Counted from the stretch's first letter, positions 1 to 6,000 are shown. The stretch is DNA of 15,951 nucleotides from Candidatus Aenigmatarchaeota archaeon (GCA_039000165.1 JAWBTW010000004.1:32470-48420); one strand, 5' to 3'. Program-made: the numbers.

Positions 1-3000
1 ATCACTTATTCTTTATAATTAGCTCATGCTTTAAATTTTTAATTGTTTTTTGCATTTTTCACAAATATTTTTTGTTTTTCTATCGACGTCGAAAACTGTG
101 TTGGAAAAGCTCATCACGCACTCAGGATTATCACAATGTTTAAGCCCAAAGACATGACCCATTTCATGTATTGCTTCTTTCACCGCCCTTTTTACTAAAA
201 TCTCTTCATTATAAACTTGTTTGTAGAAAGTCGGATTAAGTCTTGCTATAGAAACTATTGCAACCCTTCCGTTAAGTTGGGCTTGGCCGAAGACAAAATT
301 TAAGTCTTCTGCGTATAAATCCTGGTCTGTTATACCTAAAATTCTTCCCTTAAAATTTCTCGAAAGAAAGTCTAGAATTTGAGGAGCTACATATTGATGT
401 CTGTAAGGATTGTAATAATCTTTCGGCAAACCTTTTTCAGGAAGAATTTCTGAAATTAAGCCAAAGGTGTCTCTTAATTCATCTTTTATGTTGTTTAAAA
501 CTTTTTCCGGAATTTTCCCAAATGGTATTATTGTTAATTTCATAATTAAATAATGGTTAAAAGAATAAAAAGAATTAACTAGTTAAAATTTTTTAGTAGT
601 TTTAAAACAATAAAAAATTATGCATTCAAAAATTGAAACTTGTTATGAAAAAATTTGTAAAATAGCAAGAGTTGCCTCAAGCGTTAATAGAGAATATGTA
701 TAAAAACTTATGGGACAGGAGGGATTTGAACCCTCGACACACCGGTAACCGCTTAGTTCTTCAGCCGGTTGCTCTCCCGGGCTGAGCTTACAGCACATTA
801 GTGATACTGTCCCTACGACTGTCCCATTTCCTACATAATAAAATGGTTTCTAATTTATTTTGCTTGTTTAGATTTTGAAATCCTATCTCCTCTTTTAAAT
901 TAATTAATGAATTTAACCTTTTAATACGTAACCTTATTCCACAAGTTATTACCCCATCCTTTCGTACATTGAATGTGTTTGATATAAATATTGTTGATTT
1001 TATATTAAAGAATTTTTCAAGACCTTCTTTAATCTCATTTAAGAATTGGAAACCATTATCAAGTAAATTTTGGGATTTCCACATTTCCAAACCTATAAAT
1101 GGGTTGTGTTTGCTGATGTCGACCGTGCCTTCACAATTGAAAACCATCCTAACAAAACTTCTGAAACACTCTTTTTTATTTTTAATCCAAGTTGGTACAG
1201 AAAACTCTTGCATTACCTTACAACCTTTTGGAACCCCTACTAAATGAAGTACTCTACTCAACAATTTACAATTCACACCAAAATTGAAAGTTTTTCCAAA
1301 TTTGTTTCCCTTACAAGGCCTCACTCTTCCTTTGATACCAAACAAATTAAAAATTTCATTTCCAAATATTTCTAACTCTTGGAGATCTTTTGAAGTAAAA
1401 TCAAATCTCCATTTAGGTTCACCTTGGAGATGCCCATCACACATCAAGGCTGCAACTATAGATGCTAGTTGTGGAGAAGAACGAACAGGAAACCAATTGC
1501 TATGTAAATTAATTGAATTTATTGCATGATCTCTCGATTTGAATAACTTTATTACATCTTCTTCAGTTACTAAAATCTCACTCATTTTTAACACAAAATA
1601 AATAAGAGATAGCCATTTATTTATCTTTCGAAATTTTAGTTCCGGTAAGTTCTTCTTTTAAGAACTTAGAATCTCTACAAACTATTTATTTCTTACCGAG
1701 TCTAAACTTTATTCCTTCTTTCAGAATAAAAATTAAAACTCCTAAAACAACTCTTACTCCTCTTATTATTCCACTTTTTTTCTTGTACAAAACTTTAACC
1801 GGAACTTGTTTAATCTTAAGCCTATTTTTTAAGGCTTGAATAAACAAAGCATTTTCTATTATGTAGCCTCCATAAACAGCTTTGCTTAAAGTTTTAATTT
1901 TGTTTCCAGCTATAGCTATTAAACCACAGTTGGTATCTTTAAAGTTGGTCCCAAAAAGCAAGTTAAAAGAGCTTTTCCATACAAAATTCCCAAGCTTATG
2001 CCTAAACGGAATTTTTCTGAAATCTCTGTAGCCTGTAACAAACTCAGCTTCTTTTGCTTCTATGGGGGCTAAAATTTTCAAAGCTTCTTCTGGTGAATAC
2101 TGCAAATCAGCATCAAGGAGAACAACAGCCTTAATGTCATTTCTTTTTTTCAAATAATTGAAACCTGTTTTTAAAGCTTCACCCTTCCCTTTGTTTATTT
2201 CATGCCTTAAAACTATGGCTCCAGCCTTTTTTGCTAGTTCATAAGTTTTATCAAAAGAACAATCGTCTATAACCACAGGTACAATTCCTAACTTTTTAGT
2301 CCTTCTCACAACTTCATAAATAGTTTTCTCCTCGTTGTACGCTGGAATTAAACTATAAACTTTCATAAATAGCTTAAGAAAAAATAAACTTTTAAACTTA
2401 AACTTCTATAACTTCTGCTTGCCAGTAGAACCTATTTAAATCATGTTTGTAAAAGATTGAAAACTTTTTTTTGAGTTAAAAAAAATCCTAAAAACATCTT
2501 TAACGCAAAACACATAAATTTTTTTCTTTTGACTTGATAGGTGATATTATCTTTTAATTCAAACAAAACTCTACTTGTATATTTGGTTTTTTTATCTCAC
2601 TCATCAAAGACAATAAAATTTTGTAGAAAAATATTTTATTTTTCAACTAGTTTTTTTAATGTATCTTCAAAAATTTTGTAAGTTTCTGAATCATAAAGAA
2701 AGAAAGTAACTTTTTCCAATTTTGTTTTTCCTTTGAGGTAATTTATTACGCTAGAAAGCATTATTCTTGCACATCTTTCTTTTGGAAAGCCAAAAACACC
2801 TGTTGAAATAGCAGGAAAGGCTATATTTTTTAAGTTATACTCCTCGGCAAGTTTTAAACTATTCAAAGTTGCGTTTTTTAACTTTTCGTCTTCATTTCCC
2901 TCCCCGTAAACAGGACCAACAGCATGAATCACATATTTTACTTTTAGGTTTCCTCCTGAAGTTATTCTTGCTTCTCCAACAGGACAAAATCCTATTTTAT

Positions 3001-6000
3001 CGCATTCTTCTTGAATTTTTGGTCCGCCTTTTTTTCTTATTGCTCCTGCTACTCCTCCACCAAGTTTGAGTTTAGAGTTAGCAGCATTAACTATTGCATC
3101 GCCTTCAAAATCTGTTATGTCACCTTGAACAATTTCCAAAATGCTTTTGTTGATATTTACTTTCATTTCTAACCCTATAATTCTCAAGACAAGCACGCCC
3201 TCGCTGGGATTTGAACCCAGGACCTACCGGTTAACAGCCGGGTGCTCTACCACTGAGCTTTCCTCGTAATTACTACGAGGGCTGCGAGGGCTTAATATAT
3301 TTTTTAACAACTTGTTTTCATCAATTAAATATTCTTCTATACTTTTATAGAATTTCCTTAAATTATTAGGCGTTATAACAAAAACTTTATAACCTCTTTG
3401 TTGTAAATCCTTTATCTTCTTTTTTAATTTCATAGCTTTATCAAAACCTTTCCACATGCTACATTCTACAATAAGGTTACCAACCTTGAAATCTGGGAAA
3501 TAATATTTTTTATTGACATTTATACAAGGTTCGTATTGATAATTTATTCCAAATTGAAATAATGTATCAGCAATTTTCTTTTCTAAAGTATTTCTGACGA
3601 GTTCACCACGTTTGGTTTTAAATTTGTAGCTTCCAATCTTCTTAAACCGTTCATATTGCTCTAAGAAATATTTTTCACCTAATTCTTTTCTAAGTTTTTT
3701 ATGTAACCTGCTAGAAGCTTTTTTCATCTTAATTAGATTTTTTCTGAATGTTTTGCTTCTAACCTTCTTTAAGTAGCTGGCTTTACCACCAATCCTTTGT
3801 TTCCAGTTTTTATCTAACCGTTTTTGAATAATTTGCTCGATATCAACTTCTTCTAAACCTAAAAATTTCATGAGTTTGTTAAGAACATATCGAGAAATAG
3901 GTCTACCTTTATGTTTATAATAATATATTGCAGATTTCACTACATTTAAGGTTTTTGCCAACTTTCTTTCACTACCAGCCTTTTTTATGGCCATGTTAAT
4001 TATGTTTTTCTGATCTTTTAATTTAAAATACATAATAAAAACTTTGTTTATTACTATTTAAAGTTACTTCCAACTGAGCTACGAGGGCTTTTTAAACTAC
4101 TAATATATTATTAGAAAAAATTTTAAAAGTAAGTTTAATCTAAGGTAAGAAGTCTTTTTTCTCTATTTTTTCTGGCAAATAGTTTTCTGTTATAAATTTC
4201 AGGCCTTTTCCTGATAAAGCTTCTAATTCAGCTTTTATCTTTCTTTCAATCATAAGTTTTAATTCCTTTTGCCAGGCTGGGTGTTTGAACCATTCATAAT
4301 TCAGCATTTCTTTTGCTCTTTTTATGTCAACCTCTTCTGCTTTTATAGTAAAATCTTTTAAGCCAAATTTATCTATATCACTTATCGTTAAACCTAAAAA
4401 TTTTGCGTTTGGTGTTCCTAATCTATCAGAAACATGAGCCAGACTCATCGAACCGTATTTTATAACTGAATAAATATACCATCCATAACTGTTATGGAAA
4501 ACTATACCATTTCCACCTATAAAAGAATTAGAAACTGGAACAGCAAGATCAAAAACATCACCTTCATATTCTACTTCCTCTATTTTCTTTATTTTAACTA
4601 GAGTTATCATGTTTTCAAAAGGTTTTAAATTTTCAAAATCTTCCTTAAACTTTTCAGGAATTCCGTACTCTCTTACAGAATCTATAAATCTATCTTGATT
4701 AATCAACCTAGCTTTAACTGAATAAGGTACACCAAAATTATTCATAAGATTTGTTAAAATTCCTTTTACGTTTCCTTCATTCGGTAAACCATAAATTGAA
4801 TCATTGGTATAACATAATTTTGAACTTGGAGAAATCCCAAGTTTTTCTTTTATTTCTTCGCTCATTCTTGTATAAGGTATTCTTACATAGTAACCTTTAG
4901 AGTAATAAATTGTTGGCATTACTCCGAAAGATAAAAGAAGAAGAGAAAGTTGTTTTGCTAGCATCTCACTTTTTGTGAAATAAACTATATTATTATACTT
5001 ATCTATATAGCCGTCTCCTTCTATTAGACCCTTAATAAATGCCATTTGAACCTCGAAAGGAGAATTAAAAATGAAAGGAAGAATTTGTTTTTCTGAGGCT
5101 CCTGATTTTAAGCCGAAATAAGAAAATATTTTAGAAAGAATGGAACTTCCTACCGAAACCCTTATCCCTGTTTTCTTCCTTCCTTCTAAAGACAAAGAAA
5201 AGTTAAGATTTAACTTTTCCTTTAAAATTCTTTCAATTTTTTTTATCTTTTCTTCTTCCTTAGAAGACAAACTAAAAATGACATACCTTGAATACAAAGA
5301 GCCTTCTGCAACCCACAACCCAAGTAACCAAGCCAAATCTTCGTCTATTTTTATTTTATTTACTATTTTTTGTTTTCCTTTCACATGTCTTACAAACTTA
5401 GCTTTTCTTACATTCTTTGCTTTGGAAAGGGTTTGTATTTTTCCGTCCTGATAGATCAGCTCTATTCTATTCCATTTATTTTTCGGCAAGATTTGCCTCA
5501 AAATCTCACTTACGTAAAAAACTTTTTCCTTTCCGTCAAACCTTGGAAAACTTTTAGAAACAACCAGATAATCTCCTTCTTTAAGTTCTGAAGCCCTAGC
5601 AACTACTATCTTACCATTCTTAAAACTAAAGAGAGAGTGGTGAGGCGTAACTTCTATGATTCCCCTTCCTCTTGTAAAAATTCTTAGTAATTTACCTTTA
5701 ATTTTATGACGATAAGCATATTCAACCTCTTTCCATTCAATTATACCATCACTTCTCATAGAAAGAGTTTCCCAAGGGACAAAAATTATCTCCTTACTTT
5801 TTTCTTTGTTTAAAAATTTTTCTAAAAGTTTACCTATTGGTGCAGCAAAAACTTCCTTAGTATTCTTATCTCTAACCACAACAACTTCAGAAGGAGGTAT
5901 AGAATCTGCATCAGTAAAAACATACACTGGAAGGTTAAACTCTGTAGCCAATCTTTGAATTAATCTTCTTGTCCCTCTTGCAGCCTGACCTTGAGTTGTG

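What a model noticed while it worked through the whole genome (the two positions that open the first line are those of the whole stretch)
711..3291. tRNA-Phe and tRNA-Asn genes with a leader copy of the acceptor strand and an insertion at 9/10 or 8/9
tRNA-Phe(GAA) (C4:33180-33294) and tRNA-Asn(GUU) (C4:35665-35760) each carry an exact 7-nt copy of their acceptor 5' strand a few bases upstream. Each also carries a 17- or 15-nt insertion after position 9 or 8 that pairs with the true acceptor strand. The leader copy can then pair with the 3' acceptor strand. The arrangement is conserved and covaries in relatives, so it is selected and not chance.
Evidence so far: - Sequences read directly. - Orthologs without the insertion define the mature sequence. 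- The same layout occurs in 7 other genomes for Phe and 3 for Asn, with different spacers and loops. - G029 changes the acceptor, the leader copy, the 3' strand and the insertion together. - 84 of 84 cells pair, 3 pairs are compensatory, and 2 of 500 shuffles reach the score. - The MFE structure pairs the leader copy with the 3' strand in 6 of 6 sequences. - Rfam matched only model positions 9-63 of tRNA-Asn.
(Added by a program. Inside this text positions count along the whole contig: contig position 32,470 is position 1 of the stretch shown here. "Call 12" and the like, gene names such as g00115 and contig names such as C1 are that model's own, and its searches are not shown. The text may have been shortened before it was handed on; [...] marks where a part breaks off. 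The agent that wrote the report below was given it as the finding of a first reader that could run no searches.)

Follow-up and report, generated by a model that had tools for sequence, protein, structure and literature searches.

The report
Spare acceptor strand helps tRNA splicing
Two tRNA genes of a tiny hot-spring archaeon carry a short intron just behind the tRNA's first strand, and a spare copy of that strand in the leader probably holds the tRNA's 3' end while the real strand folds into the splice signal; each gene also sits beside a DNA-cutting gene with which it seems to move between species.

Summary
tRNA-Phe(GAA) (window 825-711, minus strand) and tRNA-Asn(GUU) (3291-3196, minus strand) each have an exact 7-nt copy of the acceptor 5' strand 5 or 2 nt upstream. 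Each also has a 17- or 15-nt insertion at 9/10 or 8/9.

The insertions fit archaeal endonuclease (BHB-type) introns. Acceptor bases 4-7 (Phe) or 3-6 (Asn) pair with the intron's 3' part in the register that puts both cuts two bases past a 4-bp helix (44 of 47 related genes; slid registers at most 2).

The 3' cut lies in a true 3-nt bulge. The 5' cut can be bulged in Phe but lies in a helix in Asn, so the motif is relaxed.

The leader element occurs in 39 of these 47 genes, in five tRNA types, and tracks the 3' strand, also through G·U changes. It shifts the predicted balance towards the splice fold by about 11 kcal/mol.

I found no paper describing it. Earlier notes of this scan report the same idea in Asgard, thaumarchaeal and other DPANN genomes. 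There are no RNA data.

New here: a LAGLIDADG-type and a PD-(D/E)XK-like ORF abut the two genes. Between two species, ORF plus tRNA are 99-100% identical while flanking genes are 85-91%.

The parts
819..825 (-). tRNA-Phe leader element: exact copy of acceptor bases 1-7 (GGGACAG), complementary to the 3' strand at 712-718
814..818 (-). spacer TCGTA between leader element and true 5' end. It varies in length (0-13 nt) and sequence among relatives.
805..813 (-). tRNA-Phe exon 1, bases 1-9. Bases 4-7 form the central 4-bp helix with the intron, and bases 1-3 can pair with C11-C13.
788..804 (-). 17-nt intron at 9/10 (TCACTAATGTGCTGTAA). Its CTGT pairs with A4-G7, and its last two bases plus G10 form the 3-nt bulge of the 3' splice site.
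759..787 (-). tRNA-Phe exon 2: D arm to base 37, anticodon GAA
747..758 (-). second, canonical 37/38 intron of about 12 nt. The boundary is ambiguous by one base.
   Evidence: read by eye; orthologs without it
711..746 (-). tRNA-Phe exon 3, base 38 to the discriminator; 3' acceptor strand at 712-718
3285..3291 (-). tRNA-Asn leader element: exact copy of acceptor bases 1-7 (GCCCTCG)
3283..3284 (-). spacer CA. The A can pair with U12 and lengthen helix h.
3275..3282 (-). tRNA-Asn exon 1, bases 1-8. Bases 3-6 form the central helix with GAGG of the intron.
3260..3274 (-). 15-nt intron at 8/9 (AGTAATTACGAGGAA)
3196..3259 (-). tRNA-Asn exon 2, base 9 to the discriminator; anticodon GUU; 3' strand at 3197-3203
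788..1594 (-). ORF P0001, 268 aa, LAGLIDADG-type, directly upstream of tRNA-Phe. It runs 26 nt past the tRNA's first base.
3224..4033 (-). ORF P0002, 269 aa: N-terminal HTH plus a PD-(D/E)XK-like nuclease fold. It lies directly upstream of tRNA-Asn, and its last residues are encoded by the tRNA and are disordered in the model.

Best explanation
Both genes are real tRNA genes of a DPANN-type archaeon, each with a short intron cut by the archaeal splicing endonuclease at 9/10 (Phe) or 8/9 (Asn).

The splice signal is built from the tRNA's own first strand:
- Bases 4-7 or 3-6 pair with the 3' part of the intron and form the 4-bp central helix.
- Bases 1-3 (or -1 to 2) pair with the 5' strand of the D stem and form the outer helix.
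- The 3' cut lies in the 3-nt bulge between these two helices.
- The 5' cut lies two bases beyond the central helix, in a bulge or loop that may have to open. This is a relaxed hBH/BHL-type motif.

This fold competes with the 7-bp acceptor stem. The 7-nt leader element, probably the very 5' end of the transcript, pairs with the 3' acceptor strand. The splice fold then costs nothing and becomes the favoured state.

After cutting by EndA and joining by RtcB, the real strand takes back the 3' strand, and RNase P removes leader and spacer.

Shown: the sequences, the register, the covariation, the predicted energies and the presence of the enzymes. Inferred: transcription of the leader, the splicing itself, the order of the steps and the strand exchange.
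For: 1. Register.
- Exon bases -3 to -6 pair with intron bases -6 to -3 in 4 of 4 positions in 44 of 47 distinct genes, and in 3 of 4 in the other 3.
- Registers slid by 1-3 give a mean of 1.2-1.8 pairs and at most 2 genes with 4 of 4.
- This is the rule of the canonical motif, where the first two anticodon bases lie in the 4-bp helix (PMC4090602, section 4).

2. The outer helix h is 3 bp or longer in 38 of 47 genes. The local minimum-energy fold of the Asn segment shows h, a 3-nt bulge and the helix.

3. Leader to 3' strand, on an alignment of 20 sequences: 7 pairs, 5 of them with changes on both sides, 99.3% of cells paired, 0 of 500 shuffles as high.

4. Where leader and true strand differ, 12 of 15 positions keep a standard pair with the 3' strand.
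- Ile(GAU) of G028 has two changes, both kept as G.U.
- In 4 genes the leader has the Watson-Crick pair and the true strand the G.U.

5. Energies.
- With its own 21-nt leader, the splice fold beats the acceptor-stem fold by a mean of 8.6 kcal/mol in 39 of 39 genes.
- From base 1 it loses by 2.6 on average and wins in only 4 of 39.
- Leaders swapped between genes, or shuffled, give -0.6 and -0.4.

6. Association.
- In G000 the 2 genes with the intron have the element, and 0 of the 41 others do.
- Among intronless genes in the held loci, 0-1 of 47 have it.

7. Seven species of one genus all keep GGGACAG while their spacers differ.

8. A TATA-like motif peaks at -30 to -28 from the start of the leader in 21 of 31 genes. 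It is diffuse when measured from the true 5' end.

9. The enzymes are in G000:
- EndA, 188 aa.
- RtcB.
- RNase P RNA.
- Alpha4-type EndA with an extra loop is linked with disrupted tRNAs in DPANN (PMC5829648, passages). G000's EndA has a 6-residue insert relative to the M. jannaschii enzyme.
Against: - There are no RNA data. No RNA run was listed.
- For Asn the 5' cut lies in a continuous 7-bp helix that is 7.0 kcal/mol better than the bulged form. For Phe the gap is 1.3. In 29 of 47 genes the bulge bases can form 3 or more pairs.
- After splicing in silico, the leader is still predicted to hold the 3' strand in 14 of 15 precursors, by 1.6-9 kcal/mol. The return of the real strand therefore needs tertiary folding or capture by RNase P, which the energy model does not cover.
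- 8 of 47 genes have the intron without the element, so it is not obligatory.
- Three Phe leaders have a mismatch at position 6 (G028, G083, G094).
- The Phe pattern search and model R2 favour genes that have the leader, so 39 of 47 is biased. In the less biased BLAST sets the figure is 10 of 12 readable Phe genes.
- The sequences are related, so counts overstate independence.
- Choosing 8/9 or 9/10 by the better register is mildly circular.
- Only an alpha-type EndA without a partner subunit was found. Its ability to cut relaxed motifs is not shown.
Confidence: 0.6

Rival explanations
1. The leader copy is a by-product of how the intron or the neighbouring nuclease gene arrived, for example a short tandem duplication of the first 9-10 bases made during break repair. 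It persists without a role in RNA processing.
For: - G137 has three tandem units GGGACAGTAA.
- G109 tRNA-Asn has GCCCTGGTA-AAA-GCTCTGGTA without a hairpin.
- tRNA-Ile(UAU) of G023 repeats bases 3-9 at the intron's end.
- 8 of 47 genes do without the copy.
- Nuclease ORFs abut many of these genes.
Against: - A neutral 7-mer would decay. Yet it is kept in 39 genes across at least 7 families while spacers change in length and sequence.
- Its changes keep pairing with the 3' strand in 12 of 15 cases.
- It covers exactly the 7 stem bases and not bases 8-9, except in G137.
- The promoter-like motif keeps its distance to the copy, not to the tRNA.
- Origin by duplication and a later role do not exclude each other.
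Confidence: 0.12
2. The leader element acts mainly on end processing or quality control, not on forming the splice motif. By pairing with the 3' strand it gives RNase Z or the CCA-adding enzyme a stem, or it blocks RNase P until splicing is done, or it protects the 3' end from decay.
For: - The element makes a full 7-bp stem stacked on the T arm in all 13 minimum-energy folds.
- It would still hold the 3' strand after splicing in 14 of 15 predictions.
- It probably starts the transcript.
Against: - It occurs only with introns that use the acceptor 5' strand.
- Genes without it have leaders that stabilise the same splice fold by other pairings: +1.0 with the leader against +7.8 without.
- The two roles are compatible.
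Confidence: 0.12
3. The leader element pairs with the intron's 3' part, which is also complementary to it. It would then act as a switch that hides or offers the splice site, rather than pairing with the 3' acceptor strand.
For: As a copy of bases 1-7, the element is complementary to the same intron bases as the true strand.
Against: - Leader bases 1-3 have no partner in the intron, yet they are as conserved as the rest.
- In G309, G319 and Arg of G027 the leader's variant base fits the 3' strand and mismatches the intron.
- The copy never includes bases 8-9, which the intron pairs with in 11 of 11 Phe genes read by eye.
Confidence: 0.05
4. The insertions are not removed. The genes would then be pseudogenes, or tRNAs with an extra arm.
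For: No RNA evidence for excision exists (one search listed no RNA run).
Against: - This is the only tRNA-Phe(GAA) gene found in a genome that is 91.6% complete.
- The body is fully conserved, and the splice register is kept in 44 of 47 genes.
- The region is identical in a strain that differs in the flanks.
Confidence: 0.03

Closest known systems
Non-canonical BHB introns of archaeal tRNA genes with relaxed hBH/HBh'/BHL motifs (Thermoproteales, Nanoarchaeota, ARMAN-2). Sources: PMC4090602 section 4; PMC3239211 and PMC5829648 passages.
   Same: - Short introns (12-27 nt here) outside the anticodon loop.
- A 4-bp central helix and a 3-nt bulge, with both cuts two bases past the helix.
- Several introns per gene.
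- EndA and RtcB present.
   Different: - Positions 8/9 and 9/10 are not in the list of the review section I read, which names 3/4, 20/21 to 59/60.
- The motif consumes the acceptor 5' strand and part of the D stem.
- A leader-encoded second copy of the acceptor strand accompanies the intron. No passage or search listing I saw mentions such an element.
Split and permuted tRNA genes, in which leader and trailer pair to build the BHB (PMC4090602 section 4; PMC4033280 passages)
   Same: Sequence outside the mature tRNA is needed to make the precursor spliceable.
   Different: There the extra sequences form the splice motif itself. Here the leader does not touch the motif. It replaces the strand that the motif has borrowed.
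Mutually exclusive helices with a competitor strand, as in attenuators and riboswitches (recalled, no call)
   Same: Two identical or alternative strands compete for one partner, and the choice sets the next processing step.
   Different: There is no ligand or ribosome. The exchange is driven by removal of the intron and made final by RNase P. This is an analogy only.
Homing of archaeal rRNA BHB introns by LAGLIDADG enzymes encoded inside them (recalled), and collaborative homing of a free-standing endonuclease with an ORF-less intron in phages (PMC3984707 section 12, passage)
   Same: - A LAGLIDADG-type ORF is physically linked to an interrupted RNA gene.
- The ORF is present in some relatives and absent or decayed in others.
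- A sharply bounded tract of near identity spans ORF plus gene between two species.
   Different: The ORF lies beside the tRNA gene, not in the intron. The intron is a protein-spliced mini-intron, not a group I intron. The cleavage site and immunity are untested.

Membership tests
Archaeal endonuclease-spliced (BHB-type) tRNA intron | Intervening sequence absent from orthologous genes, whose removal gives a standard tRNA | tested here: met
   11 Phe and about 20 Asn orthologs read acceptor-TA-GCTCAG without the insertion.
Archaeal endonuclease-spliced (BHB-type) tRNA intron | 4-bp central helix with both cuts two bases 3' of its strands | tested here: met
   4 of 4 pairs in both window genes and in 44 of 47 genes. 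Slid registers give at most 2 of 47. The rule is taken from PMC4090602 section 4.
Archaeal endonuclease-spliced (BHB-type) tRNA intron | 3-nt bulge at the 3' splice site, flanked by helices | tested here: met
   AAG (Phe) and AAA (Asn), with an outer helix of 3 bp. The outer helix is 3 bp or longer in 38 of 47 genes.
Strict hBHBh' motif | 3-nt bulge at the 5' splice site | tested here: not met
   Asn: the continuous helix scores -10.4 against -3.4 kcal/mol for the bulged form. Phe: -5.2 against -3.9, nearly equal. The motif is therefore filed as relaxed (hBH/BHL), not strict.
Archaeal endonuclease-spliced (BHB-type) tRNA intron | Splicing endonuclease and RtcB ligase encoded in the genome | tested here: met
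   EndA with PF02778 and PF01974, 188 aa. RtcB at 549 bits.
Archaeal endonuclease-spliced (BHB-type) tRNA intron | Excision seen in RNA, or cutting by the enzyme | not testable with these tools
   No RNA run was listed for this DNA.
Broad-specificity EndA (extra loop L1, L2 or L3; PMC5829648) | Specific loop insertion with a conserved lysine | tested here: inconclusive
   There is a 6-residue Lys-rich insert (VKLKRGPKAP) relative to M. jannaschii 1a79. It aligns without a gap to N. equitans 3iey_A. Whether this is the paper's L3 loop was not settled. No beta subunit was found.
Split or permuted tRNA | Leader and trailer pair to form the BHB; exons in separate or permuted order | tested here: not met
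   The exons are collinear. The leader pairs with the acceptor 3' strand, not at a splice site.
LAGLIDADG homing endonuclease (ORF P0001) | Match to a LAGLIDADG family model over its cut-off | tested here: inconclusive
   P0001 scores 19.9 bits against a cut-off of 22.5 for PF14528. 11 of 13 ORFs of its family pass, at 24.8-60.9 bits. There was no PDB match by sequence. Cleavage was not tested.
PD-(D/E)XK nuclease (ORF P0002) | Restriction-endonuclease-like fold with acidic and lysine catalytic residues | tested here: inconclusive
   - The model has a mean pLDDT of 89.9.
- Foldseek hits: Bax1 nuclease at E 7e-4, I-Bth0305I homing endonuclease domain at 1.1e-2, T7 endonuclease I at 2.4e-2, all with low TM-scores of 0.2-0.3.
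- E151, D181, E190 and K206 are invariant. Their role is my reading.
- There was no Pfam match.
Homing or collaborative homing of a free-standing endonuclease gene | Presence/absence polymorphism at one locus, decayed copies, and a co-conversion tract around the gene | tested here: met
   - The ORF lies between GT2 and tRNA-Phe in G000, G001, G028, G029 and G139. It is decayed in G046 and G126 and absent in many relatives with the same synteny.
- G000 against G001: 99-100% identity over ORF plus tRNA against 85-91% in the flanks, at both loci.
- There is no such excess in G029 against G139.
Homing or collaborative homing of a free-standing endonuclease gene | The enzyme cuts the intron-less allele at or near the intron site, and the intron-bearing allele is immune | not testable with these tools
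   This needs an enzyme assay.

The most novel reading that the evidence does not exclude
The nuclease ORF and the neighbouring tRNA gene, with its 5'-proximal mini-intron and spare acceptor strand, form one mobile cassette.
- A free-standing homing endonuclease (LAGLIDADG-type beside Phe, Arg, Pro and Ile genes; PD-(D/E)XK-like beside Asn and Lys genes) cuts intron-less tRNA alleles near the acceptor/D junction.
- Repair copies the ORF together with the interrupted allele.
- The intron, perhaps with the duplicated strand, breaks the enzyme's target and gives immunity.

This would be collaborative homing for protein-spliced archaeal tRNA introns, and one answer to how intron DNA enters tRNA genes.
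Probability: 0.3. Interest if true: 0.9.

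Novelty: new variant of a known kind. Interest (0 to 1): 0.8.

Why it matters
- It shows how an intron can sit at the acceptor/D junction, where its splice signal must borrow the tRNA's own first strand. A cis-acting spare strand pays the folding cost. That is a simple RNA device I found in no paper I could search.
- It explains why tRNA finders miss or truncate these genes, and so why DPANN tRNA sets look incomplete.
- It predicts an order of processing, with splicing before 5' maturation, that can be tested with three purified enzymes.
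- The link to neighbouring nuclease genes, with two near-identical tracts between species, gives a concrete and testable route for the spread of tRNA introns. A 2026 preprint calls that question open (10.64898/2026.10.13.758758, passages).

Tried and rejected
- RNA evidence: no RNA holder was listed. Only DNA contigs could be laid.
It gave one real locus, L114, the same sequence as G126. 'Aenigmatarchaeota' comes from earlier notes of this scan and is unchecked. The runs are labelled hot springs metagenome.
- The leader copy as the true 5' exon was rejected, because no U8-A9 follows it and the register does not fit.
- A MAFFT alignment of Phe with Asn and Arg broke the leader columns (A1). I built a Phe model (R1) and realigned all types to it (A3).
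- Model R1 alone did not separate Asn-type cases (35-51 bits) from ordinary tRNAs (30-36 bits). R2 did: 82-102 bits against 58 or less in G000.
- The two nuclease ORFs are not related to each other.
- P0001 against PDB sequences gave nothing.
- A second pair of HEG-bearing genomes (G029, G139) shows no excess identity.
- Sugahara et al. 2008 (doi 10.1093/molbev/msn216) is not held, so the primary list of intron positions was not seen. Supplements of the papers were not opened and may list 8/9 or 9/10 introns.
- The copy of the tRNA-His acceptor strand 31 nt upstream in G000 (C11) was judged a likely chance match.

Full report
**What is there**

Both genes lie on the minus strand.
- tRNA-Phe(GAA) reads GGGACAG-TCGTA-GGGACAG-UA-[17 nt]-GCUCAG... 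and ends ...CUGUCCC-A.
- tRNA-Asn(GUU) reads GCCCUCG-CA-GCCCUCG-U-[15 nt]-AGCUCAG... and ends ...CGAGGGC-G.
- Phe also has a canonical intron of about 12 nt next to the anticodon.

Standard finders do poorly on them.
- ARAGORN finds neither gene, even with its intron option.
- Rfam's tRNA model covers only positions 9-63 of Asn. It gives Phe 30.9 bits by mis-aligning the insertion as the acceptor.

The genome and its processing enzymes:
- G000 has 783 kb in 25 contigs, 31% G+C, and is 91.6% complete.
- It holds 43 tRNA matches, many with other non-canonical introns: D loop, variable region, 29/30 and 30/31 (read by eye).
- It encodes one 188-aa alpha-type EndA about 100 nt beyond the window's start, RtcB and RNase P RNA.

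**More than chance**

- In G000 only these two genes have a close upstream copy of their acceptor strand.
- Of the other 41 tRNA genes, none has a 7-mer within 21 nt upstream that pairs 7 of 7 with its own 3' strand.
- Among 47 distinct genes without the insertion in the held loci, one reaches 7 'pairs', five of them G.U.
- Contigs of runs from three further studies bridge both genes.

**Relatives**

BLAST-type searches of 61 related genomes gave the following.
- Phe without the insertion: 11 genomes.
- Phe with the insertion: 13 genomes. The leader copy is present in 10, absent in 2 (G035, G046) and unreadable in 1 (contig end).
- Asn with insertion and copy: G000, G001, G019 and G023.
- The same layout in tRNA-Arg(UCU) of G027.

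Wider searches extended this.
- A pattern for the Phe layout hits 23 of 371 genomes of the phylum sample. The reversed control pattern hits 1. The hits lie in families f1, f6, f9, f12, f25 and f38.
- Covariance model R2 was built on 16 Phe, 3 Asn and 1 Arg sequences. It scores the two window genes at 102 and 82 bits, against 58 or less for every other tRNA of G000.
- Run over 118 genomes of the order, R2 found further cases in Lys(CUU), Ile(UAU), Ile(GAU), Arg(UCU) and Asn genes.

In all I parsed 47 distinct genes, 34 with the intron at 9/10 and 13 at 8/9.
- Introns are 12-27 nt long.
- 39 genes have the leader element, defined as at least 6 of 7 pairs with the 3' strand and a spacer of 0-13 nt. 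By type: 22 Phe, 7 Asn, 2 Arg, 5 Lys-type (one anticodon not read) and 3 Ile.
- 8 genes lack it.
- The pattern and the model favour genes that have the leader, so this ratio is biased upwards.

**The insertion is a relaxed BHB-type intron**

In the canonical motif the first two anticodon bases lie in the 4-bp helix (PMC4090602 section 4). Each cut therefore falls after the second base of a 3-nt bulge. Applied here, exon bases -3 to -6 must pair with intron bases -6 to -3.
- This holds in 4 of 4 positions in 44 of 47 genes and in 3 of 4 in the rest.
- Registers slid by 1 to 3 give means of 1.2-1.8 pairs and at most 2 genes with 4 of 4.
- Where both 8/9 and 9/10 were formally possible I took the better register. 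This is a mild circularity. Genes whose intron does not end in A allow 9/10 only, and they fit.

Beyond the 3' bulge (two intron bases plus the first exon base), bases 1-3 (Phe) or -1 to 2 (Asn) pair with the 5' strand of the D stem.
- This outer helix is 3 bp or longer in 38 of 47 genes.
- In several species spacer bases lengthen it to 5-10 bp by pairing with the D loop.

The 5' site is less orthodox.
- In Phe the bulged form (-3.9 kcal/mol) is close to the continuous helix (-5.2).
- In Asn the continuous helix wins by 7.0.
- In 29 of 47 genes the bulge bases can form 3 or more pairs.

The motif is therefore of the relaxed hBH/BHL kind. DPANN and crenarchaeal enzymes are known to cut such motifs (PMC3239211 and PMC5829648, passages).

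**What the leader element does**

The splice fold takes away the acceptor 5' strand, so it competes with a 7-bp G+C-rich stem.
- With the natural 21-nt leader, the fold with the central helix enforced beats the fold with the acceptor stem enforced in 39 of 39 genes, by a mean of 8.6 kcal/mol.
- For RNA starting at base 1 it loses by a mean of 2.6 and wins in only 4 of 39.
- Leaders taken from genes with another acceptor give -0.6, and shuffled own leaders give -0.4.
- In all 13 precursors folded freely, the leader pairs with the 3' strand: 7 bp in 11, and 5 or 6 bp in 2.

The pairing partner is the 3' strand, not merely a DNA repeat.
- On the model-fitted alignment, which leans towards the structure, 5 of the 7 leader-3' pairs change on both sides and 99.3% of cells pair.
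- Where leader and true strand differ, 12 of 15 positions keep a standard pair with the 3' strand. In two genes the script chose a register shifted by one; by my own reading the figure is 10 of 13.
- Telling cases are Ile(GAU) of G028, where leader GGGCUCG faces true strand GGACCCG and both changes are kept as G.U. In Phe of G309 and G319, Arg of G027 and Asn of G147, the leader is the perfect partner and the true strand has the wobble.
- Three Phe leaders have a mismatch at position 6.
- In one genus seven species keep GGGACAG while the spacers read ATGTCT, AGACT, ACGGCT, TCATT, ATAG, AAT and TCAA.
- A TTTAAA-like motif starts at -30 to -28 from the first base of the leader in 21 of 31 genes and is smeared when measured from the true 5' end. 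The transcript therefore probably starts at the element. This is an inference, and the sequences are related.

**Genes without the element**

In the 8 genes that lack the acceptor copy, the leader still helps: +1.0 kcal/mol with the leader against +7.8 without.
- In some the leader lengthens the outer helix with the D loop: Ile(UAU) of G003-G005 and Phe of G035.
- In others it pairs with the freed 3' half of the D arm: Phe of G029, and possibly G046 (read by eye).

The spare strand is thus the commonest of several leader solutions to one folding problem.

**A weak point**

After removing the intron in silico, the leader is still predicted to keep the 3' strand in 14 of 15 precursors. The hand-over to the real strand must then rest on tertiary folding, which the model ignores, or on capture of the minor form by RNase P. 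This step is inferred, not shown.

**Neighbouring nuclease genes**

The ORF just upstream of each tRNA runs into it.

P0001 (window 788-1594) is LAGLIDADG-type.
- It scores 19.9 bits, under Pfam's cut-off of 22.5. 11 of 13 family members pass.
- It lies between a glycosyltransferase gene and tRNA-Phe in G000, G001, G028, G029 and G139. It is decayed by stop codons in G046 and G126.
- It is absent in many relatives that keep the same glycosyltransferase-tRNA synteny.
- More distant free-standing members lie directly upstream of other interrupted tRNA genes: Arg(UCU) of G009 (leader copy plus 8/9 intron); Pro(UGG) of G017, G026 and G033 (leader copy plus an intron after about base 3); Ile(UAU) of G023; and Ile(GAU) of G028.

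P0002 (3224-4033) has no Pfam family.
- Its model (pLDDT 89.9) has an HTH domain and a domain that matches Bax1, I-Bth0305I and T7 endonuclease I weakly.
- Its homologs occur in 9 of 118 genomes (10 places). In 8 of those genomes they abut a tRNA gene, and several are decayed.
- In the loci held, hits of either protein were found only beside insertion-bearing genes. This was a post-hoc look among related genomes.

Between G000 and G001, nucleotide identity differs sharply by region.

| Region | Identity |
|---|---|
| Four flanking genes | 85-91% |
| tRNA-Phe | 100% |
| P0001 | 99.2% |
| tRNA-Asn | 100% |
| P0002 | 99.9% |

- The high-identity tracts have sharp edges at about 600-1700 and 3200-4200.
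- That is what recent homing or gene conversion of ORF plus tRNA would leave.
- A second pair (G029, G139) shows no such excess.
- The target of the enzymes is unknown. The homing reading is a lead, with odds of about 0.3.

**Literature**

I ran seven full-text searches. I read one whole section (PMC4090602 section 4) and passages of PMC4033280, PMC5829648, PMC3239211, PMC3984707 and the preprint 10.64898/2026.10.13.758758.
- None mentions a leader copy of the acceptor strand.
- None mentions nuclease genes beside interrupted archaeal tRNA genes.
- The primary catalogue of intron positions (Sugahara 2008) is not held, and supplements were not opened.

Earlier notes of this scan describe the same 'spare', 'decoy' or 'surrogate' strand in Asgard His, Ile and Leu genes, a thaumarchaeal His gene and DPANN Pro, Asn, Ile and Lys genes. 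One note describes a 9/10 intron in an Aenigmarchaeota tRNA-Phe. These are unchecked AI notes. The scan has thus met this before on other DNA.

**Verdict**

- The insertions are most likely relaxed BHB-type introns.
- The leader copy is most likely a selected helper that frees the true strand for the splice signal (0.6).
- It is a new variant of a known kind, not yet backed by RNA data.
- It comes with an added, testable hint at how such introns travel.

Noticed in passing
window 14295-14407 (+): tRNA-Trp(CCA) with an intron of about 35-40 nt that holds AGATGAA-like and CTGA-like words. This may be the box C/D guide known from archaeal tRNA-Trp introns (recalled). Rfam scored the region only as a weak tmRNA-like match.
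   Followed up: no
window 4140-6632 (-): Topoisomerase VI subunit A gene with an intein that holds a LAGLIDADG domain. G001 lacks window 4493-5904, about 1.4 kb, so the intein is present in one species and absent in the other.
   Followed up: partly
window 3166/3196: G001, and a contig of run X8, carry about 575 extra bases right at the 3' end of tRNA-Asn, at the edge of the near-identical tract.
   Followed up: no
L195 (G137) about 1490-1634: tRNA-Phe preceded by two tandem units GGGACAGTAA and then GGGACAGTA plus the intron. That makes three copies of the first 9 bases and hints that leader copies arise by tandem duplication.
   Followed up: partly
L257 (G109), just downstream of a P0002 homolog: tRNA-Asn reads GCCCTGGTA-AAA-GCTCTGGTA-GCTCAG. 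Either it is a leader copy with no intron, or a 12-nt 9/10 intron that is itself a near-copy of bases 1-9. It may be an intermediate.
   Followed up: no
L272 (G017), L274 (G026), L270 (G033), L258 (G129): tRNA-Pro(UGG) genes with a full acceptor copy, a spacer of 8-14 nt, then GGG(G), a short intron and the rest of the strand. The intron therefore sits after about base 3-4 and has a spare strand. Three of the genes lie just downstream of a LAGLIDADG ORF and one downstream of a P0002-like ORF.
   Followed up: partly
L185 (G041) spacer: The 10-nt spacer of tRNA-Phe holds TTCAGCCGG, a perfect 9-base complement of the gene's own anticodon arm CCGGCTGAA. The minimum-energy fold pairs them.
   Followed up: no
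G000 C11:16013-16121: tRNA-His(GUG) has an exact copy of its acceptor strand 31 nt upstream but no intron near base 8. Chance is likely. G000 has two tRNA-His genes.
   Followed up: no
G000 C2:71879-71964: A second tRNA-Asn(GUU) gene with another acceptor sequence and a 13-nt intron at about 30/31. ARAGORN misreads it as Lys.
   Followed up: no
G000 C9:24839, C6:19641, C3:61614; window 747-758: Several 11-12-nt introns at 29/30 and 37/38 look alike (AACTTAGCGGAA, AAATTGGTGGAA, AACTAAGCGGTT). They may be one intron family shared between tRNA types (by eye).
   Followed up: no
L271 (G023) 1361-1490: tRNA-Ile(UAU) with a 32-nt insertion after base 9 whose 3' end repeats bases 3-9 (GCCATTA). The splice register rule does not fit, so the layout is unresolved.
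   Followed up: no
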